Shown here: positions 11,725 through 36,350 of the stretch, in pieces
How the letters are laid out: every line of letters begins with the position of its first letter
Numbering within the stretch: position 1 is the stretch's first letter
Source: Candidatus Omnitrophota bacterium
Lineage (GTDB): Bacteria > Omnitrophota > Gorgyraeia > Zapsychrales > Zapsychraceae
Assembly: GCA_016214285.1 (NCBI GenBank)
Contig: JACROV010000079.1
Coordinates: 6,855-70,854, forward strand
Direction of reading: 5' to 3'
DNA length: 64,000 bases
Program-made: the position numbers and the translations under genes
Notes under the pieces: generated by a model
What the model was told of the DNA's origin: nothing
The model's database searches: none
What the model saw: only the letters and a program-made list of their open reading frames with translations

Positions 11725-12068
11725 ATTTCGGCTGAACCTTTCACCGGAACGCTTGTCCCGCCCTCCCGCAGGGAGCCTACTCGGCCACCGAGGCGGGACT
11801 ACGCTCGACAAAAGCCCCTCGCTCGCCAAGGTGGTTGAGCGAAGGGCTCCATGGCCGCTCGTGGCTTTTAACGTCCGGCTCAAGGTTCATCCTCAATCCT
11901 TTTGTCAAGAAGTTGAGTAATGATAAGTTGCCCGAATTAAAGGTCACCGGTCAATATCCAATCCGAAGTGAACTTTGATGTGAACGAAGGATTGGATATT
12001 GACAACGACGGCGAATCATGTCGTAAGGGTTTAATCGCCGGAATGTTTATCTGTCTAACTTGGGTTAA
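11725..12068 (+). repeat. ~340-nt structured intergenic element, family C copy 1 (candidate ncRNA or repeat)
   Basis: Homologous to 36040-36350 at about 70% identity, with conserved blocks and a compensatory change in one hairpin (atatccaatcc/ggattggatat versus ataccaatcc/ggattggtat). Confidence 0.55.
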
Positions 12069-12070
12069 TC

Positions 12071-13051
12071 ATGATTACAAGTGCAATTGAAATTAATCAG
12101 TCGGTTTTAAAACGTTTCGCCGCCCTTGAGAAGAAGGGGTTTTTGGCGCACGCGTATCTTTTCACGGGCCCGGCGCATATCGGCAAGGCCGCCACCGCGT
12201 TTGCCGTTGCCAAGTTCTTGAACTGTGAGAACAAAAAAGAGGGCGGTGAGGGGTGTTCTTGCGACCGCTGCCCGTCGTGCCTGAGGATCAATTCGGGCAA
12301 CCACCCGGATATCCATGTCCTTAAAGTGGCGCCCGGCGAGTCGATCAAGATTGACGCGGTCCGTGAACTATTGGCCCGGATCAGGCTGCGGCCTTTTATG
12401 GCGGCAAAAAAGATCTTTATCGTTCATAACATTGAAGACCTCACCACCGAAGGGGCCAACGCTTTGTTGAAGACCCTGGAAGAGCCGTCGGTCAACAGTC
12501 TGCTCATTCTGACAACGGCGGTCCCTGAACGGGTTTTGGAAACGGTCAAATCCCGTTGTCACGTTATGCCATTTGTCCCGGTCTCCCAAGCAGCGCTTGC
12601 GGCCCGGCTGGTTCAGTACTATGATGAGGACAAAGACCAGGCTCACTTTCTGGCCTATTTTGCCGAAGGGTGCCTGGGCAAGGCGCGCCGGCTTAAAGAA
12701 GACGGTCTGTGCGCGGCCAAGGATGAGATCATTGACCGGTATATTTTGGGGCGCGAACGTGAGGCGCTCGTCAAAACAATTGGAGCCGACAAGGCGAAAA
12801 CAAGAGAATTTTTGGATGTCCTCTTAAGCTGGGTCAGGGACTGCCTGCTGATCCAGTCGGGAGTAGAGGATGCCCGGCTGGTGCATGCCGGACGGATCCG
12901 GGAACTACAGAACTTTCAACGGCGGTTTTCTTTCGAAGAGCTGGCCGGCATTCACCGTGAAACGATCAACGCGTGCCGGTTACTCGTCGAAAATCTTAAC
13001 GTGAAAATACCGCTGTCGATCCTGGGAGAAATGCTATACCGCGTTCCATAA
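12071..13051 (+). CDS. holB: DNA polymerase III delta' subunit
   Basis: AAA+ P-loop GPAHIGKA and zinc module CSCDRCPSC. Synteny with tmk and yaaT. Confidence 0.9.
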   Translation: MITSAIEINQSVLKRFAALEKKGFLAHAYLFTGPAHIGKAATAFAVAKFLNCENKKEGGEGCSCDRCPSCLRINSGNHPDIHVLKVAPGESIKIDAVRELLARIRLRPFMAAKKIFIVHNIEDLTTEGANALLKTLEEPSVNSLLILTTAVPERVLETVKSRCHVMPFVPVSQAALAARLVQYYDEDKDQAHFLAYFAEGCLGKARRLKEDGLCAAKDEIIDRYILGREREALVKTIGADKAKTREFLDVLLSWVRDCLLIQSGVEDARLVHAGRIRELQNFQRRFSFEELAGIHRETINACRLLVENLNVKIPLSILGEMLYRVP

Positions 13052-13114
13052 ATTTCTAATCAGGGGAACGCGGTATTATCCCGAGACCCTTGATGTTCAA
13101 GATCGAGGAGGCGA

Positions 13115-13924
13115 GTGGATATGGGCCAAATAATACAAGTCCAGTTGGGCGAATACCGCGACGCGGATTATTATGACCTTAATGGTGTTGCCTGTGACCG
13201 CGGGGATTATGTGATCGTGGAAGTCGACCGCGGATCGGAGTTCGGCCTGGTCGTCTCCCAGGTGAGCGCCGTGTGTCCCCCGAAAACGGAAAGCAAGTCC
13301 CAGGGGCGTATCTTGCGCAAGGCGACTGAAGGCGATTTGAAGCAAATTGCCAACAACCGCACGAAGGTGCAGGACGCCATCGATAACTGCGTGAGCAAGA
13401 TCAGCGACCGCAAACTTCATATGAATATCGTCAAGGCCGAGTATACTTTTGATGCCAGCAAGATCATCTTTTTCTTTCTGGCCGACGGGCGCGTTGATTT
13501 TCGCAATCTGGTCAAAGACCTGGCGAAGGTGTTCCGCGTGCGCATCGAGCTTAAGCAGATCGGCGTGCGCGACAAGGCCAAGATCGTCGGCGGTTACGGG
13601 ATTTGCGGCCGCGAGCTGTGCTGTTCGTCTTATATGAATGGTTTCCATACGCTTTCCATCAAGATGGCCAAAGAGCAGGGGCTGCCTTTGAACCCGTCGC
13701 GTATCTCGGGGGTGTGCGGCCGCATCAAGTGCTGCATGGCTTACGAATTTCAGGTGTATAAAGAATTTTCCAAAGGCCTGCCGTCGGTCGGCGAGAAGAT
13801 CACCACCGAAGAAGGCAAGGGCAAAGTGGTCGACGTCAACATCCTCAAGCGCCTGGTCACCGTCGATGTCGGCGAAGGCAAGGTCATCAAAACTGCTTTC
13901 CCGAAAGAAGTTGGGGCCGGTTGA
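13115..13924 (+). CDS. ricT: PSP1 C-terminal domain protein YaaT/RicT
   Basis: PSP1 domain with cysteine cluster (ICGRELCC, CGRIKCC). Conserved neighbour of holB. Confidence 0.85.
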   Translation: MDMGQIIQVQLGEYRDADYYDLNGVACDRGDYVIVEVDRGSEFGLVVSQVSAVCPPKTESKSQGRILRKATEGDLKQIANNRTKVQDAIDNCVSKISDRKLHMNIVKAEYTFDASKIIFFFLADGRVDFRNLVKDLAKVFRVRIELKQIGVRDKAKIVGGYGICGRELCCSSYMNGFHTLSIKMAKEQGLPLNPSRISGVCGRIKCCMAYEFQVYKEFSKGLPSVGEKITTEEGKGKVVDVNILKRLVTVDVGEGKVIKTAFPKEVGAG

Positions 13925-13961
13925 ATTGGTTCTTAAACGACTTTTATAAAAAGCCACAGGG

Positions 13962-13990
13962 CCCGCTCCGTGGCTTTCTCTTATTCGCCG
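13962..13990 (+). terminator. Rho-independent terminator after yaaT
   Basis: Hairpin gccacagggcccgctccgtggc followed by a T-rich tract. Confidence 0.6.
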
Positions 13991-14075
13991 CAGAGGCGGC
14001 GAATAACTCCAGCGTTTGATTCATTCCGAAATATCAATATTCCCGGGATGAATCAGCTGGAGTGACCACCCTTGT
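13990..14075 (+). repeat. Post-terminator repeat element, family B copy 1
   Basis: ttattcgccgcagaggcggcgaataa hairpin followed by a conserved ...ccgaaatatcaa...cccgggatgaatcagctgg block. A near-identical unit lies at 28707-28795. Confidence 0.6.
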
Positions 14076-14087
14076 TACACTTGTAAC
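14074..14087. promoter_or_regulatory. Conserved palindromic operator-like motif gttacacttgtaac (copy 1)
   Basis: Perfect 14-bp palindrome repeated at 16842-16855, where it overlaps a TTGACA-N16-TACACT promoter. Here it lies about 30 nt upstream of a small ORF with a good ribosome-binding site. Confidence 0.45.
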
Positions 14088-14113
14088 AAATTTGCTACAT
14101 GTAAGGAAGGTTA

Positions 14114-14281
14114 ATGGAAATTCTGAAGTGGTTTAAGATGTTTTTCCGTGAAAATAATAGGCGTCGATTATTGCGGCAGCAGTTAGAGAAAGAATCCAAG
14201 GTAACTCGGGCAGCCTCGCTGGAAGTACTCCACGAGATGGAAGAACTGGATGACGATTTGAACTGCGAATTCGGTCATTAA
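14114..14281 (+). CDS. Small hypothetical protein (56 aa)
   Basis: ATG with ribosome-binding site taaggaagg. Its 3' end overlaps the first GAATT hairpin. Below the 60-aa cutoff of the ORF track. Confidence 0.3.
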   Translation: MEILKWFKMFFRENNRRRLLRQQLEKESKVTRAASLEVLHEMEELDDDLNCEFGH

Positions 14282-14472
14282 TGACCGAATTTGAATTGCC
14301 CGGGCGACAGGTGAATTCAGTCGGTGCCGACTGAATTTGGACTGCCCAAGCGACAGGCAAATTCAACCGACATCGGCTGAATTCGAATTGCCCGAGACGT
14401 GAGATGAATTCCGCAGACGTCTGCGGAATTGCCCGCGGCAGGGACGCGGGGAAAAGCGGCGGAGGGAAAAGG
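14267..14472. repeat. Array D1: four GAATT-flanked 25-nt palindromic hairpins separated by (t)gaattgcccgggcgacag units, ending in a G-rich tract
   Basis: Hairpins gaattcggtcattaatgaccgaatt, gaattcagtcggtgccgactgaatt, aattcaaccgacatcggctgaatt and gaattccgcagacgtctgcggaatt. The terminal gaattgcccgcggcagggacgcggggaaaagcggcggagggaaaagg recurs at 16578 and 18011. Confidence 0.75.
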
Positions 14473-14559
14473 TGTGCGTCGCCGGAGAAACTGGCGCGCG
14501 GCCCGGCGGGATTTGGAAGAATTGGCAGGGAAAAGCATTTTCCGGGAAAGGAGAAACTT

Positions 14560-14760
14560 GTGGGCAAATATAAATTAAACAAAAAAATTGTAGTCATATC
14601 GTCTTTGGACGAAACCGATGAAAAGGATTATTGGAAGTCACGGACACCAACAGATAGATTGAAGGCCATTGAAATAAACAGGAGGATTGTATATGGATAT
14701 GCCCATACTTCCCCAAGATTTCAGAGTTTTTTTGAAGTTGCTCAACTCCAAAAGAATTGA
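14560..14760 (+). CDS. Small hypothetical protein (66 aa, GTG start), possible partner of the downstream nucleotidyltransferase
   Basis: Ribosome-binding site aaaggagaaacttGTG. The upstream portion of the listed ORF 14404..14760 covers repeats and is spurious. The 74-nt overlap with the next gene makes this call uncertain. Confidence 0.3.
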   Translation: MGKYKLNKKIVVISSLDETDEKDYWKSRTPTDRLKAIEINRRIVYGYAHTSPRFQSFFEVAQLQKN

Positions 14761-15142
14761 GTATCTGCTCATCGGCGGTTATGCCGTCGGCTATTACGGT
14801 TATCCACGCGCAACAGCTGATATGGATATATGGATCGCTATCAGCAAAGAGAACGCGAAGAAGATGACAGAAGCAATTAAGGATTTCGGCATGAAGGCTC
14901 CCGCTTTAAACGAGGGTATTTTTCTTGAGCCCGGGAAAATAATCAGGATGGGATATCCGCCGATAAGAATAGAAGTGCTGACAGAAATATCAGGAGTAAA
15001 TTTTAAACAATGCTATGCCCGGCGCGAAGAAATAAAAATTGATGGAATAAAAGTAAAAATGATATCATTGGGGGATCTTTTGAAAAATAAAAAGGCGAGT
15101 GGCCGGCATAAAGATCTAAATGATCTGGAAAATTTAAGATAA
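14687..15142 (+). CDS. Pol-beta superfamily nucleotidyltransferase (MNT/DUF6036-like), candidate TA component
   Basis: hG[GS]x9-13DxD NTase motif in LLIGGYAVGYYGYPRATADMDIWI. AT-rich relative to the genome. Confidence 0.6.
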   Translation: MYMDMPILPQDFRVFLKLLNSKRIEYLLIGGYAVGYYGYPRATADMDIWIAISKENAKKMTEAIKDFGMKAPALNEGIFLEPGKIIRMGYPPIRIEVLTEISGVNFKQCYARREEIKIDGIKVKMISLGDLLKNKKASGRHKDLNDLENLR

Positions 15143-15204
15143 CAAGCGGGTTGAGCGCTCAATTCAGACCAGGACGCTTCCGGAGTGTCCTGCGGCATTA
15201 ACAA

Positions 15205-15297
15205 GTGACGAAACTAAATGAGAAATATGTCTTCGAAATTTTACGTGACAACCCCGATTTACTACGTCAACGATAACCCGCGCATCGGGCACGCGTA
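15205..15297 (+). pseudogene. Displaced, diverged 5' fragment of metG ([26 protein letters not shown])
   Basis: About 85% nucleotide identity to the true metG start at 18634 ([26 protein letters not shown]). It ends in a stop after 30 codons. Confidence 0.7.
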
Positions 15298-15372
15298 ATG
15301 ATACCTGCCATCATCCTGTTTCTGCAAAAGAATGTTTGAGTTTTTTAAAGTGATAGTTTATAATTCTCAATA

Positions 15373-16605
15373 TGCGATTCGTTCATCGTCTCATCGAAAA
15401 TGAACTTTTAAAGGCCGCCCGCAATTTCCCGGCGATTCTCTTTGACCGGCCCGCGCCGGGCCGGGAAAACAACGCTTTTAAAAAAGTTGTTCCCCAAGGC
15501 CTCGTATTATCTCCTGGAAGACCCCGACATTGTTGCCCGCGTCCGGACTGATCCGCGTTCTTTTCTTGAAGAGATCAGGCTGCCGGTCATTCTCGATGAA
15601 ATCCAGAACGTCCCCGAACTGTTCAATTACGTGCGCGCGCGGATTGATAACGCTCCACAGAAGTTCGGACAGTGGTTTCTGACCGGGTCCCAGGAAGCCG
15701 GGCTCATGAAGGGGGTGACGGAGTCCATGGCTGGCCGCGTGGCCGTGTTTGAGCTTTTGCCGTTTTCGATAGGTGAGACATCCGGAGTTTCCATTTTTCG
15801 CGGAGGATTCCCGGAGGTTCTGGCCAGACCCCGGGCGGGCGATATCTGGTTCCGGTCGTACCTTCAGACGTATCTGGAAAGAGACGTGCGCGCGGTCAGC
15901 TCGATCAAGAGCGTGACGACATTCCGGCGTTTTTTGTCTCTGTTGGCCAGCCAGTGCGGGCAGATCCTGAACAAGACCGATCTCGCGGCCCCTTTGGGGG
16001 TGAGCGTGCCCACGTTGAGCGAATGGATCCATATCCTTGAGACCACGGGTCAGATCATCCTCGTGCCGCCTTTTTATGAAAATTTCGGCAAACGGATCAT
16101 CAAATCCCCAAAACTCTATTTTGTGGACTCCGGGTTGGCGTGTCATCTTTTGAATATCTCTTCCGAGAAAATGCTTTTTTCTTCGCCGTTTCTGGGAGCT
16201 GTCTTTGAAGGGTTCATCGCCGCGGAAATCATCAAATTCCAGATAAATACCGGCAAGAGAAAAGAGCTGTATTATTTTCGGGACCAGCAGGGCCTGGAAG
16301 TTGATTTTTTGATTCCGCAGGGGGACCGCCGGCTCATCCTTCTGGAGGCGGAGGCAACCAGGACGCTTCGGCCGCAGATGGCGGAACCCCTCAAACGGCT
16401 GGCGCACAATATCGCGCGTTACGAGGTTGAGCAGTGGGTTGTCTGTCCTGATTCCCAAAAAGGAGAACCCCTGCGCGCCTTAAGCCCGGGCACAAAGGCC
16501 CTTTCCGTGAAGGGGCTGTTGAGTGCTTTGAAGGGGCAGCTTTCCGGAACACCCGGTGCTGTCAAGGGCCGGACGGCGAATTCCACCGGCGCCGGTGGAA
16601 TTTGA
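15373..16605 (+). pseudogene. AAA_14/DUF4143-family ATPase, frameshifted near 15440
   Basis: Frame 1 from the ATG at 15373 gives MRFVHRLIENELLKAARNFPAILFDRPAPG. The P-loop TGPRRAGKTTLL continues in another frame (the listed ORF starts at TTG 15442). One extra base at about 15437-15440 separates the two frames. The C-terminus runs into the hairpin array. Confidence 0.6.
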
Positions 16606-16716
16606 ATTGCCCGGGCGACAGACGAATTGAGTCGGTGCCGACTGAATTGTAGTGTAAATTTGAATTCGTCCCGACGTATCGTCGGGACGAATTGCCCGCG
16701 GCAGGGGGGGGGGGAT
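16578..16716. repeat. Array D2: three GAATT-flanked palindromic hairpins plus a gaattgcccgcggcagg(g)n tract
   Basis: gaattccaccggcgccggtggaatt, gaattgagtcggtgccgactgaatt and gaattcgtcccgacgtatcgtcgggacgaatt, then gcccgcggcagggggggggg. Confidence 0.75.
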
Positions 16717-16821
16717 CCGACCAGAGGACACTTTGGGAGTGTCCGGCGGCGGGTGTTAAGTTGTGGTTGCCCCGGAGTTTGGTACGTCCCCGGAATCCCC
16801 TCGTTTTTAGCAGAAAATGAA

Positions 16822-16862
16822 TTGACATATGGCTGTGCCATGTTACACTTGTAACAGAATTG
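16822..16862 (+). promoter_or_regulatory. Sigma70-like promoter (TTGACA-N16-TACACT) overlapping palindrome gttacacttgtaac, upstream of the wHTH-MNT gene
   Basis: -35 TTGACA at 16822-16827 and -10 TACACT at 16844-16849. The palindrome at 16842-16855 is identical to 14074-14087. Confidence 0.5.
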
Positions 16863-16947
16863 TTACAAAGGCCGCCCTTTAATATTTCAAAGGCGAGCCT
16901 CGCCATTTCACCAAGAAAGGAAATGGCGAAAATAGCGGGAGCTTCTT

Positions 16948-17556
16948 ATGCGTTTTCATGAATCTTTTCTGAGTGTTTTAAGATCGGACTTGAAGCTGAA
17001 GATCGTCAGATTTCTGCTCGATCATCAGGCCTCCATGAGCGAGCGCGAGATCGCCGCCGTCTTGAAGATCTCCCACATGAGCGTCAACCGCACCATGCAG
17101 GAACTGGCCCAGGCGAACCTTGTCCATTACCTGACCGTGGGCAAGGCGCATCTTTGGCAAGTGAACCGCCGCAGTTTTGCTTACAAGGCCTTGCGCCGAT
17201 TGTTCATTAGTTTGGAAAAGTCCCCGGATCCCCTGGAAGAATTAAAACAGGTCCTTTTAAAGCACTTGCCGCGAGGGTTGGTCAAGAGGATCGTCTTGTT
17301 CGGTTCAGTGGCGAAGGCTTCGGAGGGACCCCAGAGCGATATTGACGTCTTTATACTGGTCAATGATGCCCAAGGTCAACAGAGGCTTGAGGCGGCTATT
17401 GAAAAACTTTCTAATGAATGCCTGGAGGTTTTTGGGAACAGGCTGTCCCCGTATATTCTCACCGAAGGGCAATATAAACAAAGGCGGGATTCAGGTATTA
17501 TTGCCCAGGTCGAACAGGGGATTCAGATCTATCCCAACGGCAAGGCCGTGTCATGA
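16948..17556 (+). CDS. Winged-helix DNA-binding domain fused to a minimal nucleotidyltransferase (MNT antitoxin-like)
   Basis: MarR/ArsR-like N-terminal HTH. C-terminal NTase motif LFGSVAKASEGPQSDIDVFILV. Its stop overlaps the start of the HEPN gene. Confidence 0.7.
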   Translation: MRFHESFLSVLRSDLKLKIVRFLLDHQASMSEREIAAVLKISHMSVNRTMQELAQANLVHYLTVGKAHLWQVNRRSFAYKALRRLFISLEKSPDPLEELKQVLLKHLPRGLVKRIVLFGSVAKASEGPQSDIDVFILVNDAQGQQRLEAAIEKLSNECLEVFGNRLSPYILTEGQYKQRRDSGIIAQVEQGIQIYPNGKAVS

Positions 17557-17963
17557 CGTCTAAATTCAAAACAAGGGATGTGGGTAAGGCCCATTACGCC
17601 AATTTTTTGAAAAAGGCGGAAGAGTGTTTTCACGCGGCGCGGAATTCCTTCGCGGCTCAGGAATGGAACGCCGCGGCCATCAACGCCATTCATTGCGCTA
17701 TTGCCGCCTGCGACGCGATGTGCGTTTATTTTTTGGGCAAGCGCCACTCGGGTGAAGACCATAATGACGCGGCAGGGTTGTTCAAGGCCATCCGCCACGA
17801 TGAAGAGATCAATACCAACGCGAACCGGATTTTGAGGATTTTACGCATGAAAAGTATGGCGGAATATGAAGAGCGGCTGGTCTATAAATCCGAGGCCGAG
17901 AAGGTCCTGAAGGACTGCGAACGGTTTTGGGAGTTTGTGCAGGAACAGCTGCCTAAAGGCTGA
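17553..17963 (+). CDS. HEPN domain protein (toxin-like partner of the MNT)
   Basis: Rx4-6H motif GKRHSGEDH in a ~136-aa alpha-helical protein. It overlaps the MNT gene by 4 nt. Confidence 0.65.
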   Translation: MTSKFKTRDVGKAHYANFLKKAEECFHAARNSFAAQEWNAAAINAIHCAIAACDAMCVYFLGKRHSGEDHNDAAGLFKAIRHDEEINTNANRILRILRMKSMAEYEERLVYKSEAEKVLKDCERFWEFVQEQLPKG

Positions 17964-17972
17964 TGCTTAACC

Positions 17973-17997
17973 CCCGGCAACACCGGGTGTTGCCGGG
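17973..17997. repeat. GGCAACACCGGGTGTTGCC palindromic element, family E copy 1 (intergenic)
   Basis: Perfect 25-bp palindrome cccggcaacaccgggtgttgccggg. Other copies at 24383-24403 (inside alr) and 61947-61975 (inside lnt). Confidence 0.8.
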
Positions 17998-18010
17998 GCC
18001 GGGCGGACAG

Positions 18011-18122
18011 CGAATTCAGTCGACGTCGACTGAATTTGAATTCGTCAGATATCTGACGAATTCGCCAGCTAGCTGGCGAATTGCCCGCGGCAGGGGTGCT
18101 GGAAAGCGGCAGAGGGGAAAGG
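18011..18122. repeat. Array D3: two GAATT-flanked palindromic hairpins plus a gaattgcccgcggcagggg... G-rich tract
   Basis: cgaattcagtcgacgtcgactgaatt and gaattcgtcagatatctgacgaattc, then gccagctagctggcgaattgcccgcggcaggggtgctggaaagcggcagaggggaaagg. Confidence 0.75.
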
Positions 18123-18169
18123 TACACGTTTACGGGGAATATCGGTACAGAAATACATTGGATATCCAG

Positions 18170-18637
18170 ATGAAGAAGCCAGTAATTCAGTTAGAGCGTA
18201 CAGGTTGTGGTATCGCGAGCGTGGCTGCGATCGTCGGTTTCTCTTACCTGAAAATGAAGTCGATCGCGAATTCTTTGGGTGTCTTTGCGCATGACGAGAC
18301 TTTGTGGTCGAACCCGTCTCACGTGCGGAAGTTGTTGAGGCGTTTCGGCGTGAGAGCTGGCTCACGTGAAATACCTTTCCGCTCTTGGGAGACGCTTCCT
18401 GATCTTGCACTGTTGTCGATCAAGTGGCATCTTGAGAAAGGCCGTCCTTATTGGCATTGGGTAGTGTTCGTTCGAGAAAATGGGCGATCCTATGTGCTGG
18501 ATTCAAAAAAGCGTCTGCGTAGCAACGTCAGAACGGACTTTGGGCGTATGAAGCCAAAATGGTATATCCCGGTCATTGATGTCCAGCAATGCGTTCAATG
18601 CGATCGCGCCGGCAATAATAGACAGATAGAATCATGA
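18170..18637 (+). CDS. Peptidase C39-like (papain-fold) domain protein
   Basis: Catalytic-Cys context QLERTGCGIASVAAI and His context WHWVVFV. The real start MKKPV is about codon 70 of listed ORF 17963..18637, whose N-terminus is repeat DNA. The coordinate may be off by one. Confidence 0.55.
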   Translation: MKKPVIQLERTGCGIASVAAIVGFSYLKMKSIANSLGVFAHDETLWSNPSHVRKLLRRFGVRAGSREIPFRSWETLPDLALLSIKWHLEKGRPYWHWVVFVRENGRSYVLDSKKRLRSNVRTDFGRMKPKWYIPVIDVQQCVQCDRAGNNRQIES

Positions 18638-20154: not shown

Positions 20155-20232
20155 GGTCACAAAGTCACCCGGTCACAACGTCACCAGTATTTTTTACCTG
20201 TGACTTTGTGTCTTTGTGACATGGTGACCACT
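20155..20232. promoter_or_regulatory. Long imperfect palindrome built from GTCAC half-sites downstream of metG
   Basis: ggtcacaaagtcacccggtcacaacgtcacc ... cctgtgactttgtgtctttgtgacatggtgacc. It may act as a bidirectional terminator and/or an operator upstream of mtnA. Confidence 0.45.
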
Positions 20233-20246
20233 TCGAAAGTATTATT

Positions 20247-21329
20247 ATGTCTATTCAAACGATCAGTTGGGTCAACGGTCACGTCAAGCTCATCGACCAG
20301 ACCAAACTTCCCGGGAAATTGGTTTACATCCATTGCCGCGACGTCAAGACACTGTGGCAGGCGATCCGGCGTTTGAGTGTCCGCGGCGCGCCGGCCCTTG
20401 GCGTGGCGGCGGCGTTCGGAGTTTTACTGGGGATCAAATCTTTTTCCGGTTCCGGTTCCCGTTCCAGGAACCGGAACGACCGGAAACATTTTAGCAAGCA
20501 TGTGGATCAGATAAGCGATTATATCGCCGCCTCGCGCCCGACGGCGGTGAATCTTTTTAATGCTCTGGCGAGGATGAAACAGGTTGTCCATCGTCACCCT
20601 GACGCAAGCGTTGGCGGACTGAGAAATCTTTTGAAAAAAGAGGCGCTGGCCATTTATGAGGAAGACCGCAAGCTTTGCCGGCGGATGGGAACCTTTGGCG
20701 CGCGCCTTATCCCGTCGGGTGCCAACCTTTTGACCATCTGCAATGCCGGCGCGCTGGCGGCCGTCGATTACGGCACCGCGTTAGGTGTCATGTACAGCGC
20801 CAAGGCGAAGGGCAAGAAATTCCAGGTTTACGCGTGCGAAACGCGGCCGCTTTTGCAGGGCGCGCGGCTGACGGTGTGGGAACTCTTGCGTTCGGGCATT
20901 GATACGACGTTGATTTGCGACAACATGGCCGCAACGTTGATGAAGCAGGGCAAGGTTGACGGGGTTTTTACCGGCGCTGACCGCATCGCCGCTAACGGAG
21001 ACACGGCAAACAAAATCGGGACGTACAACCTGGCCGTTTTGGCCAAACATCACCGGATCCCTTTTTACGTGGTCGCTCCCCGGTCGAGTTTTGATCTCTC
21101 CATCAAAAACGGCCGGCAGATCCCGATCGAACAAAGAAGCAAGGAAGAGGTCCTGGGTTTTGGCGGCTGCCCGACGGCGCCGCGGCAGGTGAAGGTGTAC
21201 AATCCCGCCTTTGATGTGACGGACAACAGGTTGATTGCGGCGATTGTGACGGAGAAAGGAATCATCCGCCAGCCGTTTGTGAAAAATATAAAGAGGGTCT
21301 TTGAACGGAGAAACCATTCCGGCGAATAA
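20247..21329 (+). CDS. mtnA: S-methyl-5-thioribose-1-phosphate isomerase
   Basis: eIF-2B/MtnA family motifs (ETRPLLQGARLTVWEL, DRIAANGDTANKIGTY). Contains a low-complexity insert SGSGSRSRNRNDRK encoded by a palindrome at 20443-20486. Confidence 0.85.
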   Translation: MSIQTISWVNGHVKLIDQTKLPGKLVYIHCRDVKTLWQAIRRLSVRGAPALGVAAAFGVLLGIKSFSGSGSRSRNRNDRKHFSKHVDQISDYIAASRPTAVNLFNALARMKQVVHRHPDASVGGLRNLLKKEALAIYEEDRKLCRRMGTFGARLIPSGANLLTICNAGALAAVDYGTALGVMYSAKAKGKKFQVYACETRPLLQGARLTVWELLRSGIDTTLICDNMAATLMKQGKVDGVFTGADRIAANGDTANKIGTYNLAVLAKHHRIPFYVVAPRSSFDLSIKNGRQIPIEQRSKEEVLGFGGCPTAPRQVKVYNPAFDVTDNRLIAAIVTEKGIIRQPFVKNIKRVFERRNHSGE

Positions 21330-21557
21330 GCCTTTCCGCCCAGATCCGCCATCGTTGTCATCCCGATCTCTCGTTCACTAAAACGTTCACTCAAGATTGG
21401 GATGACCGGTAACCTTTTGTTCGGGACAGTTTAGGCGTGTGGTATCAGGCGGGTGACCCGGAAGCGGGTTCCCTGCCGCCCGCAGCGATAAGCGAGGACG
21501 GGAGGGTGCCGCAGGGGCAGGACCCGCCGGTGGATTGAGAATAGTTTTATTAAAATT

Positions 21558-22451
21558 ATGTCTCTACGACTTTCCCAACTCGGCGAGTTCGGCCTCATTG
21601 ATCTTCTCAGGAAATATAAGGGAAGCGGCGCGGGCGTCATCAAGGGCATCGGCGATGACACGGCCGTCGTGCCGCTGGACGCTAAACGGTATCTCTTGCT
21701 GACGACGGACATGCTGATGGAAGGCGTGCATTTCGAACGCAAGACGCCACCACGCTTGATTGGGCGCAAGGCCTTGGCATGCAGTATCAGCGATATCGCG
21801 GCGATGGGAGGCAGGCCGCGCTACGCGCTTGTGTCTTTGGGCGTCCCGGGGAGTTTGTCCTGGGCGTTTGTCCGTGATCTGTATAAAGGCATGGACGCGC
21901 TGGCGCGCAAATTCGGCGTTGCCGTCGTCGGCGGGGACACCGTTAAAAGCGCCAGGCTCGTGATCAATGTCGCTCTTACGGGTGAGGTTAACAAGACTGA
22001 CGTAGTTTATCGAAGCGGCGCCCGGCCGGGTGATCTGATCTTTGTAACAGGGCCGGTGGGAAAATCTTTGTCCACGGGCTGGCATCTGAAATTCGCCCCG
22101 CGCGTAAAACAAGCGCGGTATTTGGTTGAGCATATCAAACCGACATCCATGACCGATATCTCCGACGGGCTGGCGGCGGATCTGGGGCACATTCTGGAAG
22201 AGAGTAAGGTCGGCGCTGTTCTGGATGAGAAGAAAATCCCGCGGCGCGCCGGTGCTAATTTGCGCCAGGCGCTTTATGACGGGGAAGATTTCGAGCTTTT
22301 GTTTACAGTTCCTCGTCGCAAGGCCGCCTTATTAAGAAGGAACAAATTTTATCTCATTGGCGAGATCGTCCCATGGTCTAAGGGATTGTTATTACGGGAT
22401 AAAAACCAGCGGTTAACGAAGATTAATATTCAGGGATATACACACTTTTAA
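21558..22451 (+). CDS. thiL: Thiamine-monophosphate kinase
   Basis: AIR-synthase-related N- and C-terminal domains (GDDTAV, LLTTDMLMEGVHF). Confidence 0.85.
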   Translation: MSLRLSQLGEFGLIDLLRKYKGSGAGVIKGIGDDTAVVPLDAKRYLLLTTDMLMEGVHFERKTPPRLIGRKALACSISDIAAMGGRPRYALVSLGVPGSLSWAFVRDLYKGMDALARKFGVAVVGGDTVKSARLVINVALTGEVNKTDVVYRSGARPGDLIFVTGPVGKSLSTGWHLKFAPRVKQARYLVEHIKPTSMTDISDGLAADLGHILEESKVGAVLDEKKIPRRAGANLRQALYDGEDFELLFTVPRRKAALLRRNKFYLIGEIVPWSKGLLLRDKNQRLTKINIQGYTHF

Positions 22452-24294: not shown

Positions 24295-25446
24295 ATGAAT
24301 AAACATTTAACTTGGGCACAGATTGATTTAAGCGCCATCCGGCATAATTTTCGGGTGCTACAACGGCTGGCGGGAATACCCACGGCAACACCCGGTGTTG
24401 CCGCGGGTTCGGGGAAAGTGAAAATCCTCGCCGTCATCAAGGCGGACGCGTACGGCCACGGGATGCTGGTCGCGAAGGTTCTCGTTAAAGAGAAGGTGGA
24501 TTTTATCGGGCTATCGAATCTGACCGAAGGGATCGCTTTACGCGAGGCAGGCATCAAAACGCCGGTCCTTTTGTTTGAAACGACCCTCGCTGAACAAGCC
24601 CAAAATATTATTGACTACGAGCTGACCCCGACGATATGCACGCATGAATTGGCCGCGGCGTTGAACCGCTACGCGCAGAAACGTAAGCGCGTGGTGGATA
24701 TCCACGTCAAGGTCGATACCGGCATGGGGCGCCTGGGCGTCTGGCATGAAGAGGCTTTGGATTTTATAAAGAAATTAAGCCGTCTGCGGAATTTGCGGGT
24801 CCAGGGGATCTGCACCCATTTCCCGTCGGCGGATACGGACCAGGCGTTCACGCGCCGTCAGATCAGAGATCTGGAGAATTTAGTTTCGCGGCTTAAAGCC
24901 GGAGGGCTTCATGCTCTTTACGTCCACGCGGCCAACAGCATGGGGCTGGTTGGATATCCGAACAAGATTTTGAATCTCGCGCGGCCGGGATTGATGCTCT
25001 ACGGCCTGTATCCGCGTCCGGGATTGGAAGAGAAAGTCAATTTGCGCCCGGCGATGAGTATCCATTCGAAGATCATCTTTTTAAAGCGCATTGAAAAGGG
25101 AAGAAGCATCAGTTACGGCCGGACGTTTATCGCCTCGCGGCCTATGACGGTCGCGACCTTGCCGATCGGTTACAGCGATGGATATCTGCGCGGACTCTCC
25201 GGCAAGGCGGACGTTCTTGTCGGCGGCCAGCGTTGTCCGGTTCTGGGCCGTGTCACCATGGACCAGATCGTTGTTGATGTTTCCAAGATTAAAAATCCTC
25301 GGCTGGGGATGCCGGTTGTCATTTTAGGAAAGCAAGGGAAAGAGGAAGTCTGCGCTTATGAGCTCGCCCAACTCGTCCGTACGATCAATTACGAGATCGT
25401 CTGCAGCCTCGGGAGCCGCTTGCCGAGGTTGTATAAAAAAGCTTGA
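24295..25446 (+). CDS. alr: Alanine racemase
   Basis: PLP-lysine motif VIKADAYGHG and a C-terminal beta domain. Carries an in-frame 21-bp palindrome insertion (TATPGVA) at 24383-24403. Confidence 0.9.
   Translation: MNKHLTWAQIDLSAIRHNFRVLQRLAGIPTATPGVAAGSGKVKILAVIKADAYGHGMLVAKVLVKEKVDFIGLSNLTEGIALREAGIKTPVLLFETTLAEQAQNIIDYELTPTICTHELAAALNRYAQKRKRVVDIHVKVDTGMGRLGVWHEEALDFIKKLSRLRNLRVQGICTHFPSADTDQAFTRRQIRDLENLVSRLKAGGLHALYVHAANSMGLVGYPNKILNLARPGLMLYGLYPRPGLEEKVNLRPAMSIHSKIIFLKRIEKGRSISYGRTFIASRPMTVATLPIGYSDGYLRGLSGKADVLVGGQRCPVLGRVTMDQIVVDVSKIKNPRLGMPVVILGKQGKEEVCAYELAQLVRTINYEIVCSLGSRLPRLYKKA
24383..24403. repeat. Family E palindrome copy 2, in-frame inside alr
   Basis: cggcaacacccggtgttgccg encodes ..TATPGVA.. 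. The alr N-terminal linker is about 8 aa longer than in E. coli Alr at this position. Confidence 0.75.
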
Positions 25447-25480
25447 TATTTCGATAGTATGCTATAATCTCTCCCGTCAA

Positions 25481-27307
<1,827 letters not shown>

Positions 27308-27508: not shown

Positions 27509-27542
27509 GCGTCTTTTGGCGCAGGCAGATAACTTTCAACCC

Positions 27543-28674: not shown

Positions 28675-28708
28675 AAGCCCTGAACCAGAACATGGTCCAG
28701 GGTTTTTT
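28675..28708 (+). terminator. Rho-independent terminator
   Basis: gccctgaaccagaacatggtccaggg followed by TTTTTT. Confidence 0.65.
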
Positions 28709-28795
28709 ATTCGCCGCAGTGGCGGCGAATAACCCCCCAGCGCTTGATTTATCCCGAAATATCAAGATCTCCGGGATGAATCAGCTGGGGTGAGC
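28707..28795 (+). repeat. Post-terminator repeat element, family B copy 2
   Basis: ttattcgccgcagtggcggcgaataacccccc agcgcttgatttatcccgaaatatcaagatctccgggatgaatcagctgggg. Matches 13990-14075. Confidence 0.6.
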
Positions 28796-28887
28796 ATATA
28801 GGCGCAGAAGCCCAACATCTGTAATCAGATGTCGGGCTTTTTTTGATCCATTTACCTTCATATCGCATAAACAGAAAAATGGATCAA

Positions 28888-28930: not shown

Positions 28931-28949
28931 TGACCGAGGGGGAATAAAG

Positions 28950-31448: not shown

Positions 31449-31454
31449 ATCGCT

Positions 31455-31632
31455 TCAAAATTCGAAGCACGAAATCCGAAATTCGAAACAATACCAAAAC
31501 CCGAATGATCTAAATCTGAAACAGAGGGTTTCAATCGTTGTTGGAATTTAGCATTTAGAATTTGTTTCGTGTTTTCCGCCAAAGGCGGATCGGCCTCTGG
31601 CTGACGAGCTTCGGATTTCGAATTTAATTAAA
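31455..31632. repeat. MITE-like element, family A copy 3
   Basis: ttcgaagcacgaaatccgaaattcgaaacaa ... ttgtttcgtgttttccgccaaaggcggatcggcctctggctgacgagcttcggatttcgaattt. Confidence 0.7.
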
Positions 31633-31642
31633 GGGGTGATTT

Positions 31643-32005
31643 ATGAGGACATCGTATTTAGTCAATCTGGGGAATGTTAATGATATCCCTTTGGGGCAGG
31701 GCGCCTGTTATATCGTCAAAGGAGAAGAGATCGCGGTCTTTCGCGCGCGCGACGGCAAAGTTTCCGCTATCGCGAACAGATGCCCTCACCGTCAAGGCCC
31801 GTTATCGGAAGGTGTGGTCGGTAACGGCAAAGTCGTTTGTCCGTTGCATGGTCATAAGTTCGATCTTGCCTCGGGACAGGGCAGTGAAAAACATGAATGC
31901 GTCCGGGCCTTCGAGGCCTGGGAACAGTATGGGGAAATCATTTTAAGCTTTCCCTGTGAACTATTTAATAAAAACAAAAACGAAAGGAGCTCAGCATGTT
32001 TTTAA
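31643..32005 (+). CDS. nirD: Nitrite reductase small subunit (Rieske-like)
   Basis: CPH..GPL...CPLHG Rieske-type motifs. 120 aa. Confidence 0.85.
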
Positions 32006-33330: not shown

Positions 33331-33347
33331 AAAGACGAGAGAAAATC

Positions 33348-34355
33348 ATGAGCGATAGAATGATCAAGAATAAAAAAGGACAGGTGTCCCTGGGCGCGAC
33401 GGCGTTTCCCCCAAACGGACTCAGCTTAAAAGCGGGAGATATCCTTTTGAAACTTTGGGTCTCGCTGGGGATCCCGGTCGCGGCTTTTAGCATTTTTATC
33501 TGGCTGTGGTCGGCCGGCGCCGCCAGTGTCCAGACGAGCTTGGGGACACTCCCTGGGCCTCAAGCGGTATTTGCGCAGGCCGGAACATTATGGCAGGAAC
33601 ATTGGGAAGAAAAAGGAAAAGAAAAAGAATTCTATTTTAAGCAGCGGGAACAGAACGCACAAAAGCTGGCGCAGGATCCAGCTTATCAGGTGAAGGCACG
33701 CAAATATACCGGCAAACCGACGTATCTTGACCAGATCATCACCAGTCTTATTACGGTCTTTACCGGTTTTGTCATCGCGTCCCTGGTCGCCATCCCCATC
33801 GGTATTCTTTGCGGATTGAATCGCATCATCATGATCGCGTTTAATCCTTTCATTCAGATCTTCAAACCTGTTTCCCCGCTGGCTTGGCTGCCTTTGGTCA
33901 CGATGATCGTCAGTGCGGTTTATACGACGCAAAACGGCGGCATCGAGAAATGTTTTATCATCTCGGCGATCACGGTTTCGTTATGTTCTTTATGGCCGAC
34001 GCTGATCAACACGGCGCAGGGGGTATCTTCCATTGATAAGGATATCATCAACGTTTCCCGCGTCTTGAACCTCGGGTGGTTCACCCATGTTTTCAAGATC
34101 GTTTTGCCGTCATCATTGCCGCTGATATTTACCGGCTTAAGGATCTCTTTGGGTGTCGGGTGGATGGTCCTGATCGCGTCCGAAATGCTGGCCCAGAATC
34201 CGGGGCTGGGAAAATTTGTCTGGGACGAATTCCAGAACGGGAGCAGTAATTCGCTGGCCCGAATTATGGTGGCGGTCTTGACGATCGGGGTCCTCGGTTT
34301 TATTTTAGACCGCCTGATGGTCTTATTGCAGAAAACGGTCAACTTTCAAAAATAG
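33348..34355 (+). CDS. nrtB: Nitrate ABC transporter permease
   Basis: BPD_transp_1 permease with an EAA-like loop. The ATG at 33348 is preferred over the listed TTG at 33327. Confidence 0.8.
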
Positions 34356-34366
34356 GATATAGCTTT

Positions 34367-35230
34367 ATGGCTTTTCTGGAATTAAATAATGTTTCGAAAT
34401 CGTACGTGAGCGGCCCTGGGGGCAAGCGGCTTCCGGTCCTTGAGAACATCAACCTCAAGGTCGAGGAAGGGGAATTCATCGCTATCGTTGGATTTTCCGG
34501 GAGCGGAAAGACGACGCTGATCTCTTTGATCGCCGGGCTGCTGAACCCTGATGAGGGGGAGATCCTTTTGCGTGGTCAACCCGTTTTAAGCCCAGGTCCT
34601 GACCGTGGGGTTGTTTTTCAGAATTACTCTCTTCTGCCGTGGCTGTCGGTCTACGGCAATGTCCGTTTGGCCGTCGGGAAGGCTTTTCCCTCGTGGTTGC
34701 CGCGGCAAAAAGACCGGCAGACGCACAAGTTCATTGATCTGGTCAAATTGACCCCGGCCGTCGCCAAATATCCGCGTGAATTGTCCGGAGGGATGCGTCA
34801 GCGCGTTGCCGTGGCCCGCGCTTTGGCGATGAATCCGCAAATGCTTTTGCTGGATGAGCCGCTAAGCGCGCTCGATGCCCTGACGCGCGCGACCCTGCAG
34901 GATGAGATCGAAAAGATCTGGGAAAAAGAACGCAAGACGGTCATCCTGATCACCAATGACGTTGATGAAGGTATCCTTTTGGCGGACCGGATTATTCCGC
35001 TCAACCCTGGCCCATCCGCGACGCTGGGGCCGGAATTTCCCATAACCCTGCCCCGGCCGCGCAACCGTCAGCAGTTGAACCATGACGCGCGTTACAAAAT
35101 GATCCGCAACCAGATCATCGAATATCTGATGGACGTGCGCGGGGATGTCGCCGGGTTCCGTGTCCCTGAAGATCTGGTTTTGCCTGATCTGGAGCCGCGA
35201 TATGTCAGCTCCGACTCGCTGAAAGGATGA
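34367..35230 (+). CDS. nrtC: Nitrate ABC transporter ATP-binding protein
   Basis: Walker [10 protein letters not shown], signature [14 protein letters not shown], Walker B LLLDEP. Confidence 0.85.
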
Positions 35231-36036
35231 TCTTGATGGAATCGTCGGTATTGCAGTTTGAACGGATCTCCAAGGTTTACCCGGTTCCTAAAGGCGGGGA
35301 ATACGTTGTGCTGGAGCAATTCGATCTGAACATTGCCAAGGGAGAATTCGTCGCGGTCATCGGGCATTCGGGCTGCGGGAAATCGACGGCGTTGATGATC
35401 GCCGCGGGGCTTCTTCCCATGAGTGGTGGATATGTCTTTTTGAAAAGCCGCGAGATCGTCGGGCCGGGGCCGGACCGGGGGGTCGTGTTCCAAGGGCCGA
35501 GTCTTCTGCCATGGTTAAGCGCCCTGGAGAACGTGATGCTGGGCGTGAATCAGGTCTTTCCCAACGCGCCCGGGAAGCAAAAGGAAGATGTCGCGCGATA
35601 CTATCTTCACCGCGTCGGGTTATCCGAGAGCATGAAGAAAAAGGCCGCGGACCTCTCCAGCTGGATGAAATAGCGGGTGGCCATCGCCCGGGCGTTCGCT
35701 TTAAAGCCGAAAGTTTTGCTGCTCGATGAGCCTTTCGGCATGCTGGATTCCATGACGCGCTTCGAACTGCAGGAAGTTTTGATGGAGGTCTGGTCGCGGG
35801 AACAGATCACCGCCATGCTGGTCACGCACGATATTGACGAAGCGTTATTTTTGTCCGACCGTGTCGTGATGATGACCAACGGCCCCCGCGCCAAAGTCGG
35901 CGATATTCTGGAAGTGCCCTTCGCCCGGCCGCGGCTGCGCAAGGACGTCATCGAGCACCCGGATTATTACCGGTACCGGGGATATTTGACGGATTTTTTG
36001 GAGAATGCGGATAAAAATGTTACAAACACAAAATAA
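35227..36036 (+). pseudogene. nrtD: Second nitrate ABC ATPase (nrtD-like), interrupted by an in-frame TAG at 35671-35673 within a degenerate signature motif
   Basis: Walker A GHSGCGKST is intact. The signature reads LSSWMK*RVAIARA where LSGGMKQR is expected. The downstream frame (Walker [13 protein letters not shown]-loop TH) continues as listed ORF 35677..36036. Confidence 0.6.
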
Positions 36037-36039
36037 TAA

Positions 36040-36350
36040 TATGTTTGCCTCTCTGCTCGCATGGACGTTTATTTTTCCCTCCCGAAGGGAGCCTATCGGC
36101 CAGCGAGGAAAAATAAACTCGACATTCGGCCTCGCTCTCCCGGGGAGTCAGAGCGCGGGGGAACCATGCCCGCTCGGCCTCATGACGCCATGCTCACAGA
36201 GAGTCAAACATGTCCCGAACAAAAGGTCACTGGTCGATACCAATCCGCAGTGAGCGTGCTAGCGAACGGAGGATTGGTATCGACAACGATGGCGAATCTG
36301 GGCGCAAAGGTTTAATCGCCGGAATGGTTATCCGTTAACTATCATAAAAG
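36040..36350 (+). repeat. Structured intergenic element, family C copy 2
   Basis: Collinear with 11725-12068. Shared blocks: ccctcccg.agggagccta, aaaggtcac.ggtc.ata.ccaatccg, ggattgg.at.gacaacga.ggcgaatc, ggtttaatcgccggaatg.ttatc. Confidence 0.55.

What the first reader, a model, noticed from the sequence alone, without database searches (positions are those of the whole stretch)
11725..36350. Two diverged copies of a ~330-nt intergenic element with conserved blocks and a compensatory hairpin change: candidate structured RNA family
The tmk-holB spacer (11725-12068) and the nrtD-porin spacer (36040-36350) are collinear at roughly 70% identity, with conserved blocks ccctcccg(c/a)agggagccta, aaaggtcac(c/t)ggtc.ata(t)ccaatccg, ggattgg(a)tat(t/c)gacaacga(c/t)ggcgaatc and ggtttaatcgccggaatg(t/g)ttatc. 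One hairpin changes on both arms in concert: atatccaatcc...ggattggatat versus ataccaatcc...ggattggtat. This pattern marks a selected secondary structure rather than a recent duplication. Both copies sit on the + strand immediately 5' of a gene start. No RNase P, tmRNA, SRP or 6S signature motifs are present. This could be a novel large leader or ncRNA, or an old structured repeat.
Basis: seen in the sequence. Interest (0 to 1): 0.75.

Follow-up and report, generated by a model that had tools for sequence, protein, structure and literature searches.

The report
Hairpin-forming intergenic repeat family in Omnitrophota
The two similar spacers are real, but they are copies (three in this window) of a dispersed, hairpin-forming, non-coding repeat that sits between housekeeping genes in some groundwater Omnitrophota genomes and is missing from the same sites in close relatives; this makes it a new example of a known kind of bacterial repeat, not a gene leader or a riboswitch.

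Summary
The interpretation needs revision.

- A third copy lies on the minus strand at 21293-21433, antisense to the mtnA-thiL operon.
- The unit shared by all copies is a ~140-nt core: a 54-nt hairpin with invariant purine-rich internal loops, flanked by conserved sequence blocks. The 5' ~175 nt shared by copies A and B is a separate module.
- I found 13 distinct core copies, in this window and in metagenomic contigs that are, or are taken to be, from related Omnitrophota.
- The hairpin is strongly supported by covariation: 7 compensated pairs, 0 of 500 shuffles as good. No other helix in the core is supported.
- Close relatives (about 85-91% protein identity) lack the element at the same gene junctions. 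Their nrtD and porin genes overlap, and so do tmk and holB in one relative. A relative also carries a copy where this window has none.
- Orientation is 6 sense and 6 antisense or convergent. Downstream genes are unrelated. No shared promoter or terminator was found. Rfam, phage and plasmid searches gave nothing, and no transposase, nuclease or reverse transcriptase gene recurs beside the copies (one copy adjoins an rve-type transposase).

Best reading: an insertion-polymorphic, modular structured intergenic repeat like ERIC, BOX or REPIN elements. How it spreads and any role at the RNA level are unproven. Interest is modest.

The parts
11721..12066 (+). Copy A, composite element filling the tmk|holB spacer (5' module, ~25-nt linker, core)
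   Evidence: Relatives have 0-121 nt at this junction and no core.
11724..11898 (+). 5' module of copy A: a multi-hairpin domain closed by a ~25-bp outer helix (arms 11724-11748 and 11874-11898)
   Evidence: z = -3.7. Homologous to 36041-36211.
11763..11784 (+). 22-nt mini-hairpin insert CTCCCGCAGGGAGCCTACTCGG inside the 5' module
   Evidence: It is the only difference from the otherwise identical contig L001 (GCA_016201705.1). The same 21-mer sits at the same place in copy B. A similar sequence also occurs on its own in L066.
11923..12066 (+). Core of copy A
   Evidence: Covariance models R1 and R2: 138 and 134 bits.
11950..12003 (+). Hairpin P2 of copy A (15-bp lower stem, GAA/GAA internal loop, tandem G.A, 6-nt apical loop)
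21293..21433 (-). Core of copy C, antisense in the mtnA|thiL spacer. Its 3' tail overlaps the last 12 codons and the stop of mtnA (ORF ends at 21329).
21357..21406 (-). Hairpin P2 of copy C
21434..21557 (-). A different GC-rich repeat module upstream of core C (not the A/B 5' module)
   Evidence: It matches L078 2134-2212 at 78% over 83 nt, with no core there.
36037..36347 (+). Copy B, composite element inserted at the nrtD|porin junction
   Evidence: Absent in four assemblies of relatives with 91% porin identity, where nrtD and the porin gene overlap.
36041..36211 (+). 5' module of copy B, closed by a 24-bp outer helix (arms 36041-36064 and 36188-36211)
   Evidence: z = -4.05.
36206..36347 (+). 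Core of copy B
   Evidence: Covariance models R1 and R2: 157 and 159 bits.
36233..36284 (+). Hairpin P2 of copy B

Best explanation
The feature is a family of non-coding, modular, hairpin-forming intergenic repeats. It is restricted, as far as I sampled, to a clade of groundwater Candidatus Omnitrophota.

Anatomy. The recurrent unit is a ~140-nt core. It has a 27-nt conserved 5' block (CCCGAAC.AAAGGTYAC.GG). Next comes a 54-nt hairpin whose stem sequence drifts by compensatory change while its purine internal loops (GNA/GAA and tandem G.A) stay nearly invariant. Then follow the conserved blocks ACAACGAUGGCGAAUC and AAAGGUUUAWUCGCCGGAAUGG. Copies A and B carry, in addition, a separate ~175-nt multi-hairpin module 5' of the core.

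Shown. Copies have been gained or lost independently at junctions between housekeeping genes, in either orientation. They sometimes rewrite the last codons of the neighbouring gene. Other small palindromic repeats interrupt some copies.

Inferred. Spread depends on a factor acting in trans that recognises the hairpin and its invariant loops in single-stranded nucleic acid, as HUH/RAYT-type enzymes do for REP and REPIN elements. Once inserted, the element is co-transcribed with the operon, where the hairpin can act as an RNA structure such as a processing site or exonuclease barrier. It is not a leader dedicated to the downstream gene.
For: 1. Three copies lie in the window, two on the plus strand and one on the minus strand.

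2. There are 13 distinct copies in all. Ten more came from the relative contig L059 and from metagenome contigs recovered by a motif scan and confirmed with the covariance model.

3. Presence and absence differ at orthologous sites.
- The nrtD|porin junction has no spacer (overlapping ATGA) in L074-L077, whose porin is 91% identical. The window has a ~310-nt insertion there.
- The tmk|holB junction is overlapping, 59, 112 or 121 nt long in relatives, and none has a core.
- The metG|mtnA junction holds a copy in L059, a different palindrome in the window, and nothing in L052 and L056.

4. Orientation relative to neighbours is 6 sense and 6 antisense or convergent. Downstream genes are functionally unrelated.

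5. The hairpin is 97-100% paired, with 7 compensated pairs in 21 cells. No shuffle out of 500 reached this, and slid controls paired only 24-45%.

6. The structure is a mosaic. The 5' module is present in only 3-4 copies. The 60-nt and 20-nt inserts inside copies D, L067 and E also occur elsewhere on their own. There is a 22-nt mini-hairpin indel between otherwise identical strains.

7. Several metagenome contigs begin or end inside or just beside the element (L070, L065, L071), as expected where repeats break assemblies.

8. Rfam, plasmid, phage and viral-contig searches gave no match. No promoter or terminator is shared between copies.
Against: - No terminal inverted repeats, target-site duplication or autonomous parent element were found.
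- No transposase, nuclease or reverse transcriptase gene recurs next to copies. The one exception is an rve-type transposase beside the L070 copy.
- No near-identical copies exist at different loci. Core identity is 66-92%, so recent transposition is not demonstrated. Gain or loss by recombination is equally possible.
- Unpaired blocks and loop purines are strongly conserved across 10-30% divergence. Every copy keeps an intact hairpin. This looks more like purifying selection on a function than neutral decay of selfish copies.
- Density is modest: 3 copies in 64 kb here, 2 in a 24-kb contig, and none in about 150 kb from other relatives.
Confidence: 0.6

Rival explanations
1. A family of independently transcribed structured small RNA genes. 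A trans-acting or protein-binding RNA would be built around the hairpin with its tandem G.A loops, and the paralogues would be scattered in intergenic regions.
For: - The hairpin shows strong covariation.
- The purine loops and single-stranded blocks are invariant across copies that differ by 10-30%.
- Extra hairpins occur at one fixed junction, between ACAACGAU and GGCG, in copies D, E and L067. This resembles optional stems in true structured RNAs.
- Both orientations are compatible with a self-contained gene.
Against: - No promoter-like or terminator-like signal recurs at homologous positions.
- Sequence upstream of the core is unrelated in core-only copies.
- RNAalifold on 13 sequences supports only one helix.
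- G.U versus A.C counts in that helix are 4 to 4, so no strand is preferred.
- Copies are absent at orthologous sites in close relatives and sit inside operons, even between genes that overlap in relatives.
- The 'optional stems' are independent repeats that also occur elsewhere.
- Truncated copies exist (E, L067).
Confidence: 0.15
2. A cis-regulatory 5' leader (riboswitch, attenuator or translational operator) controlling the gene immediately downstream.
For: Copies A, B, L072, L063 and L066 lie 20-40 nt upstream of a start codon in the same orientation. In copy B, an 11-nt stretch of the element (36048-36058) is complementary to the porin Shine-Dalgarno region at 36350-36360.
Against: - The downstream genes are unrelated: holB, an Alginate_exp porin, a DoxX-like protein, a redoxin-like protein and a polyprenyl synthase (the last three named from the translations only).
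- Six copies have no gene downstream on the same strand (C, D, E, L068b, L070, L071).
- Orthologous holB and porin genes in relatives lack the element.
- The Shine-Dalgarno sequence downstream of copy B is native DNA, not part of the element.
- There is no Rfam match.
Confidence: 0.05
3. The conserved blocks are double-stranded DNA sites for a host or mobile-element protein. The tandem GTGAAC-N6-GTGAAC and the repeated AAAGGT blocks could bind, for example, a nucleoid-associated protein or a recombinase. The hairpin would then be an incidental palindrome.
For: The loop sequences are invariant, the element works in either orientation, neither strand is favoured in G.U versus A.C counts, and all copies are intergenic.
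Against: Stem positions covary instead of being conserved, which implies selection on intramolecular pairing rather than on a duplex sequence. The invariant loop is a direct repeat, not a palindromic site. No candidate protein is known.
Confidence: 0.1

Closest known systems
ERIC / IRU elements of Enterobacteria (about 127-nt imperfect palindromes)
   Same: About 130-140 nt, non-coding and strictly intergenic within transcribed regions. They occur in either orientation. Presence or absence differs at orthologous sites between close relatives. Pairing is maintained, and enlarged forms carry extra internal segments. No transposase or target duplication is known. (These ERIC properties come from my own knowledge of the literature, not from tests here.)
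   Different: There is no sequence similarity. Here only the central 54 nt is palindromic, and the flanks are conserved single-copy blocks. The host phylum is different (Omnitrophota).
BOX elements of Streptococcus pneumoniae (modular boxA-boxB-boxC)
   Same: Modular build from separable hairpin-forming units that occur in different combinations. They lie in intergenic positions next to housekeeping genes. Their mode of spread is unknown. (From my own knowledge.)
   Different: The modules here are unrelated in sequence. The order is 5' module then core, and the core often stands alone. No tandem multiplication of a middle module was seen.
REP / REPIN elements mobilised by RAYT (HUH Y1) transposases
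   Same: The hairpin is maintained by compensatory change. Conserved nucleotides flank the stem. Copies are intergenic and in either orientation. Other small palindromes nest into them.
   Different: REPs are 20-40 nt with a conserved GTAG foot, and REPINs are inverted REP doublets. Here the unit is one long hairpin plus about 85 nt of non-palindromic conserved sequence. No RAYT gene was seen, although only 64 kb plus fragments were available.
Classical MITEs (for example Correia/NEMIS elements, RUP)
   Same: Small, non-coding and dispersed, with insertion polymorphism. They can rewrite gene ends and be co-transcribed.
   Different: The core has no terminal inverted repeats and no detectable target-site duplication. 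No related autonomous IS was found. The inverted arms closing the 5' module differ in sequence between A and B, which is not expected for transposase-recognised termini.

Membership tests
Classical MITE | Terminal inverted repeats conserved in sequence among copies | tested here: not met
   The core has no terminal inverted repeats. The inverted arms that close the 5' module are complementary within A and within B but differ in sequence between them.
Classical MITE | Target-site duplication flanking the insertion | tested here: inconclusive
   Filled versus empty comparison at nrtD|porin shows about 310 nt replacing about 9-29 nt, with no recognisable duplication. Flank divergence limits resolution.
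Classical MITE | A related autonomous IS with matching ends | tested here: not met
   The IS4-like transposase gene at 47316-48527 has no core-like sequence near it. Neighbours of all copies are housekeeping genes, except an rve transposase beside L070. The whole genome was not available.
Dispersed intergenic repeat (ERIC/BOX-like) | Multiple non-coding intergenic copies, in either orientation, with presence or absence differing at orthologous sites | tested here: met
   13 copies, 6 sense and 6 antisense or convergent. Orthologous junctions are empty in relatives.
Dispersed intergenic repeat (ERIC/BOX-like) | Conserved potential to form a stable stem-loop | tested here: met
   (97-100% paired, 7 compensated pairs). 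Searches give z-scores from -3.7 to -4.3.
REP/REPIN-RAYT | 20-40-nt palindromes with a conserved 5' GTAG, often as inverted doublets | tested here: not met
   There is a single 54-nt hairpin, no GTAG foot, and about 85 nt of non-palindromic conserved flanks.
REP/REPIN-RAYT | A cognate RAYT / Y1 transposase gene in the same genome | not testable with these tools
   Only 64 kb of the genome is available. No Y1_Tnp domain was found among the 30 window ORFs scanned.
Riboswitch / cis-regulatory leader | Constant position 5' of functionally related genes, on the same strand | tested here: not met
Riboswitch / cis-regulatory leader | Conservation at orthologous loci | tested here: not met
   Absent upstream of holB and of the porin gene in relatives with 64-91% identity that were sampled.
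Any Rfam family (including RNase P, tmRNA, SRP, 6S, HEARO, ribozymes) | Covariance-model score at or above the gathering threshold | tested here: not met
   No hit in the whole window. At E<=10 in spacers A and B only noise appears, at 8.8-16.5 bits against thresholds of 35-66.
Independent sRNA gene | Its own promoter and intrinsic terminator at homologous positions in the copies | tested here: not met
   The caveat is that only sigma-70-type consensus was scanned and Omnitrophota promoters are not characterised.
IS200/IS605 PATE or TnpB/IscB omega-RNA | Association with tnpA/tnpB/iscB, and left-end and right-end hairpins that resemble each other | tested here: not met
   No such gene lies near any copy. 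The hairpins of the 5' module and the core are unrelated. There is no HEARO hit. Genome-wide absence could not be tested.
Integron attC site | R''/R' core sites (RYYYAAC ... GTTRRRY) bracketing the hairpin, downstream of cassettes | tested here: not met
   By inspection of A5 no GTTRRRY or RYYYAAC sits at the foot of the stem. The copies lie between housekeeping genes.

The most novel reading that the evidence does not exclude
The core is a functional structured RNA that travels as a small mobile module. One possibility is a scaffold or guide RNA, or a protein-binding RNA, for a nuclease, recombinase or RNA-binding protein encoded elsewhere in these genomes. Another is a host-domesticated operon-punctuation element whose invariant G.A loops are a specific protein-recognition site. 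Either would make it a new class rather than one more selfish repeat.
Probability: 0.15. Interest if true: 0.65.

Novelty: new member of a known kind. Interest (0 to 1): 0.3.

Why it matters
To my knowledge no interspersed repeat family has been described for Omnitrophota, an uncultivated phylum, and two literature searches found none.

This clade seems to fill almost every operon junction with some hairpin element, and the family differs from lineage to lineage. That bears on three things:
- how MAGs of these organisms fragment during assembly;
- how gene ends are called, because several C-termini here are encoded by repeat DNA;
- how operon expression may be tuned.

The core is an unusually clean case of a repeat whose stem drifts by compensation while its loops stay fixed, which points to a specific partner still to be found. 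It does not, on present evidence, open a new category of RNA.

Tried and rejected
- Rfam, in gathering mode on the whole window and E-value mode on spacers A and B: nothing.
- ARAGORN: nothing.
- Genome-contig scan with GACAACGAYGGCGN{15,30}TCGCCGGAA: 50 loci, all chance matches in GC-rich genomes. The covariance model rejects all of them.
- Viral-contig scan: 0 hits.
- Plasmid and phage blastn: no match.
- A second, broader covariance model (R2): no additional copies in 362 kb.
- Helices P1, P3 and P4 proposed from three sequences did not survive 13 sequences. P3 shows only one-sided changes and frequent mismatches. P4 shifts register between copies. RNAalifold keeps only P2.
- A strand test using G.U versus A.C counts was uninformative: 4 to 4 in P2.
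- Hammerhead-like reading of AGUGAGC...GCGAAC: rejected. The core motifs differ and no Rfam ribozyme model scored.
- Readings as a sigma-70 promoter (TTGACA at the 3' foot of the stem), a DnaA box (TTATCCAC in one copy), parS and attC were each checked by inspection and rejected, because the motif is not conserved across copies.
- Small-ORF reading: rejected because of frame-breaking indels and non-conserved start codons.
- Literature searches for Omnitrophota repeats or ncRNA motifs: nothing relevant.


Full report
**1. The observation**

The tmk-holB spacer (11721-12070) and the spacer between the last nitrate ABC-transporter gene and an Alginate_exp porin gene (36037-36363) are collinear homologues. 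Aligned columns are 80% identical, with one 31-nt indel. The conserved 18-19-mers are expected 0.02-0.15 times in shuffles of the window. Both spacers fold about 4 SD better than dinucleotide shuffles. Rfam finds nothing at gathering thresholds in the whole window and only noise at E<=10 in the two spacers. ARAGORN finds no tRNA or tmRNA.

**2.

The same pattern searches uncovered a third copy, C, on the minus strand at about 21293-21433. It lies between mtnA (IF-2B family, 20247-21329) and thiL (AIRS, 21558-22451), both plus-strand genes. It is therefore antisense to the operon, and its 3' tail overlaps the last 12 codons and the stop of mtnA.

A three-way alignment shows that only the 3' ~140 nt is shared by all three copies. 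I call this the core. A covariance model of the core (R1), run with filters off, finds exactly these three copies in the window at 138-157 bits.

The 5' ~175 nt shared by A and B is a separate module. It is closed by an outer helix of about 24 bp (A: 11724-11748 with 11874-11898; B: 36041-36064 with 36188-36211). The sequence of this helix differs between A and B, but the arms stay complementary. C carries a different GC-rich module in that position, and that module recurs without any core in a relative (L078).

**3. Organism and further copies**

The holB protein is identical to one in GCA_016201705.1 (a 6.2-kb contig, L001). Its homologues are labelled Candidatus Omnitrophica or Omnitrophota.

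My first collection scan (genome contigs) used a pattern that was too GC-rich and returned only chance matches. The model rejected all 50, and the inspected example is coding sequence. A metagenome scan with the invariant hairpin-loop pattern CCAATCNNNAGTGARCNNNNNNGYGAACG gave 11 loci, 9 of which the model confirmed. Two more copies lie in L059, a Hainich groundwater contig whose holB is 90% identical. Counting distinct sequences, there are 13 copies. Viral contigs, plasmids and phages gave nothing. A broader second model, R2, found no further copies in 362 kb of fetched loci.

**4. Structure**

I built a curated 13-sequence alignment (A5), removing nested insertions and a scaffold artefact.

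- The central hairpin P2 is 97-100% paired (lower stem and apical stem). Seven pairs show compensatory double changes, in 21 cells. None of 500 column shuffles reaches this, and sliding the partner by 1-3 columns gives only 24-45% pairing.
- Inside the hairpin, a tandem G.A/A.G (columns 48-61 and 49-60) and A45.G64 are invariant. The pair next to the tandem G.A switches between G-C and A-U.
- RNAalifold on the 13 sequences keeps only this hairpin.
- The helix P3 (GGCGAAUC/GAUUCGCC) that looked plausible with three sequences shows only one-sided changes and frequent mismatches. P1 and P4 are not consistent between copies.
- G.U versus A.C counts in P2 are 4 to 4, so they do not show which strand matters.

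The core is therefore one selected hairpin with sequence-constrained loops, flanked by about 85 nt of conserved sequence that is not demonstrably structured.

**5. Context: the decisive evidence**

The neighbourhood is syntenic in relatives, so orthologous junctions can be compared.

- *nrtD|porin.* Four assemblies whose porin is 91% identical have nrtD and the porin gene overlapping (ATGA) with no spacer. One of them is the same contig as L059. The window has about 310 nt inserted there and a shortened nrtD C-terminus. The Shine-Dalgarno sequence in front of the porin gene is native DNA, not part of the element.
- *tmk|holB.* The junction is overlapping, 59 nt, 112 nt or 121 nt in relatives with 85-90% identical holB, and none has a core. 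The L059 spacer keeps short stretches resembling the element's two ends around other repeats, which suggests internal loss there.
- *metG|mtnA.* L059 has a copy (D). The window has a different GGTCAC-rich palindrome. Two other relatives have TAAATG with no spacer.
- *mtnA|thiL.* This is the only junction occupied in both the window (C) and L059 (E). These two copies are only 77% identical, and E is truncated by yet another repeat.

Across all copies, orientation relative to neighbours is 6 sense (A, B, L072, L063, L066, L067) and 6 antisense or convergent (C, D, E, L068b, L070, L071). Same-strand downstream genes are holB, a porin, a DoxX-like membrane protein, a redoxin-like protein and a polyprenyl synthase; the last three are named from the translations only. 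The other neighbours scanned are housekeeping genes or have no Pfam match, apart from one rve-type transposase beside L070. No promoter-like or terminator-like site recurs at homologous positions.

**6. Mosaic nature**

- A 60-nt two-hairpin insert sits at the same point (after ACAACGAU) in copies D and L067, and also occurs alone in L071.
- The 20-nt palindrome inside E occurs identically in L060-L062.
- A 60-nt repeat that truncates E also sits in the L059 tmk|holB spacer.
- L001 is otherwise 100% identical to the window over copy A, yet lacks exactly the 22-nt mini-hairpin 11763-11784.
- The window holds several further repeat families.
- Nearly every operon junction compared carries some lineage-specific palindrome.

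**7. Interpretation**

The leader or riboswitch reading fails on orientation, on gene association and on orthologous conservation. An independent sRNA gene is not excluded. What speaks for it is the conservation of the loops and single-stranded blocks over 10-30% divergence, together with the intact hairpin in every copy. Against it, there are no transcription signals, only one supported helix, copies inside operons, and truncated copies.

The best-supported description is an insertion-polymorphic, modular, structured intergenic repeat of the ERIC, BOX or REPIN kind. Three things are shown: copies are gained or lost at gene junctions, pairing in the hairpin is under selection, and the element is modular and non-coding. 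Two things are inferred: that a trans-acting factor recognises the single-stranded hairpin and its invariant loops, and that the co-transcribed hairpin affects the mRNA.

Against a simple selfish-MITE model, there are no terminal inverted repeats, no target duplication, no parent IS, and no near-identical copies at different loci. I therefore do not file it as a MITE or a REPIN, only as working like that class.

**8. Verdict**

This is a real feature and a previously undescribed family, and a new member of a known kind. Interest is 0.3. The most novel reading still open is that the core is a functional, mobile structured RNA or a specific protein-binding module. I give that about 0.15.

Noticed in passing
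window 35674-35676 (within nrtD, 35227-36036): The ABC ATPase gene upstream of copy B has an in-frame TAG, and its signature motif is altered (LSSWMK* here, LSSGMKQ in the 91%-identity relative). It looks like a pseudogene or a sequencing error, and its C-terminus is shortened next to the insertion.
   Followed up: partly
window 13950-18630: A variable region lies between the PSP1 gene and metG. It carries an AAA_14/DUF4143 ATPase and an NTase gene followed by a HEPN gene (HEPN named from the syntenic relatives), a toxin-antitoxin-like pair. Each is bounded by copies of another repeat family (14262-14453, 16573-16715, 17986-18105; palindromes such as GAATTCAGTCGGTGCCGACTGAATT). Relatives carry different cassettes at this spot (a PemK pair, or none).
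   Followed up: partly
window 8830-8965, 25479-25645, 31458-31627: A further AT-rich repeat family (AAATTCGAAGCACGAAAT...GAAACAA...), about 110-170 nt long, is present in both orientations between genes.
   Followed up: no
window 13981-14068 and 28707-28796: An 87%-identical repeat pair, each beginning with the hairpin TTATTCGCCGCAGAGGCGGCGAATAA.
   Followed up: no
window 17972-17998, 24380-24406, 61948-61974: A 27-nt perfect or near-perfect palindrome CCACGGCAACACCGGGTGTTGCCGTGG occurs three times. It looks like a REP-like mini-element.
   Followed up: no
window 20155-20246: The metG|mtnA spacer is filled by a GGTCAC/GTGAC-rich palindrome. This palindrome is absent in relatives, which have TAAATG or a core copy there.
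   Followed up: partly
window 11763-11784 versus L001: A 22-nt mini-hairpin (CTCCCGCAGGGAGCCTACTCGG) is the only difference between the window and an otherwise identical MAG contig. A similar sequence also occurs on its own in L066 6432-6465. It may be a tiny mobile palindrome, or a slippage or assembly difference.
   Followed up: partly
window 36048-36058 and 36350-36360: An 11-nt stretch at the 5' end of copy B (CCTCTCTGCTC) is complementary to the porin Shine-Dalgarno region (GAGGAGAGAGG). This may be chance, or an anti-SD pairing created by the insertion.
   Followed up: no
window 47316-48527 (-) and 49420-62870: An IS4-like DDE transposase gene (DUF4372 + DDE_Tnp_1) lies next to a type I restriction-modification specificity gene (Methylase_S, 49420-50607) and an AAA ATPase gene, in a stretch whose other scanned ORFs have no Pfam match. 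This may be a mobile or defence island unrelated to the repeat.
   Followed up: no
L068 1801-2734: Two core copies in direct orientation, about 630 nt apart, flank a small ORF on the opposite strand. I took it for a BrnT-like toxin by eye, but the Pfam scan of the 90-aa ORF in this interval gave no match.
   Followed up: no
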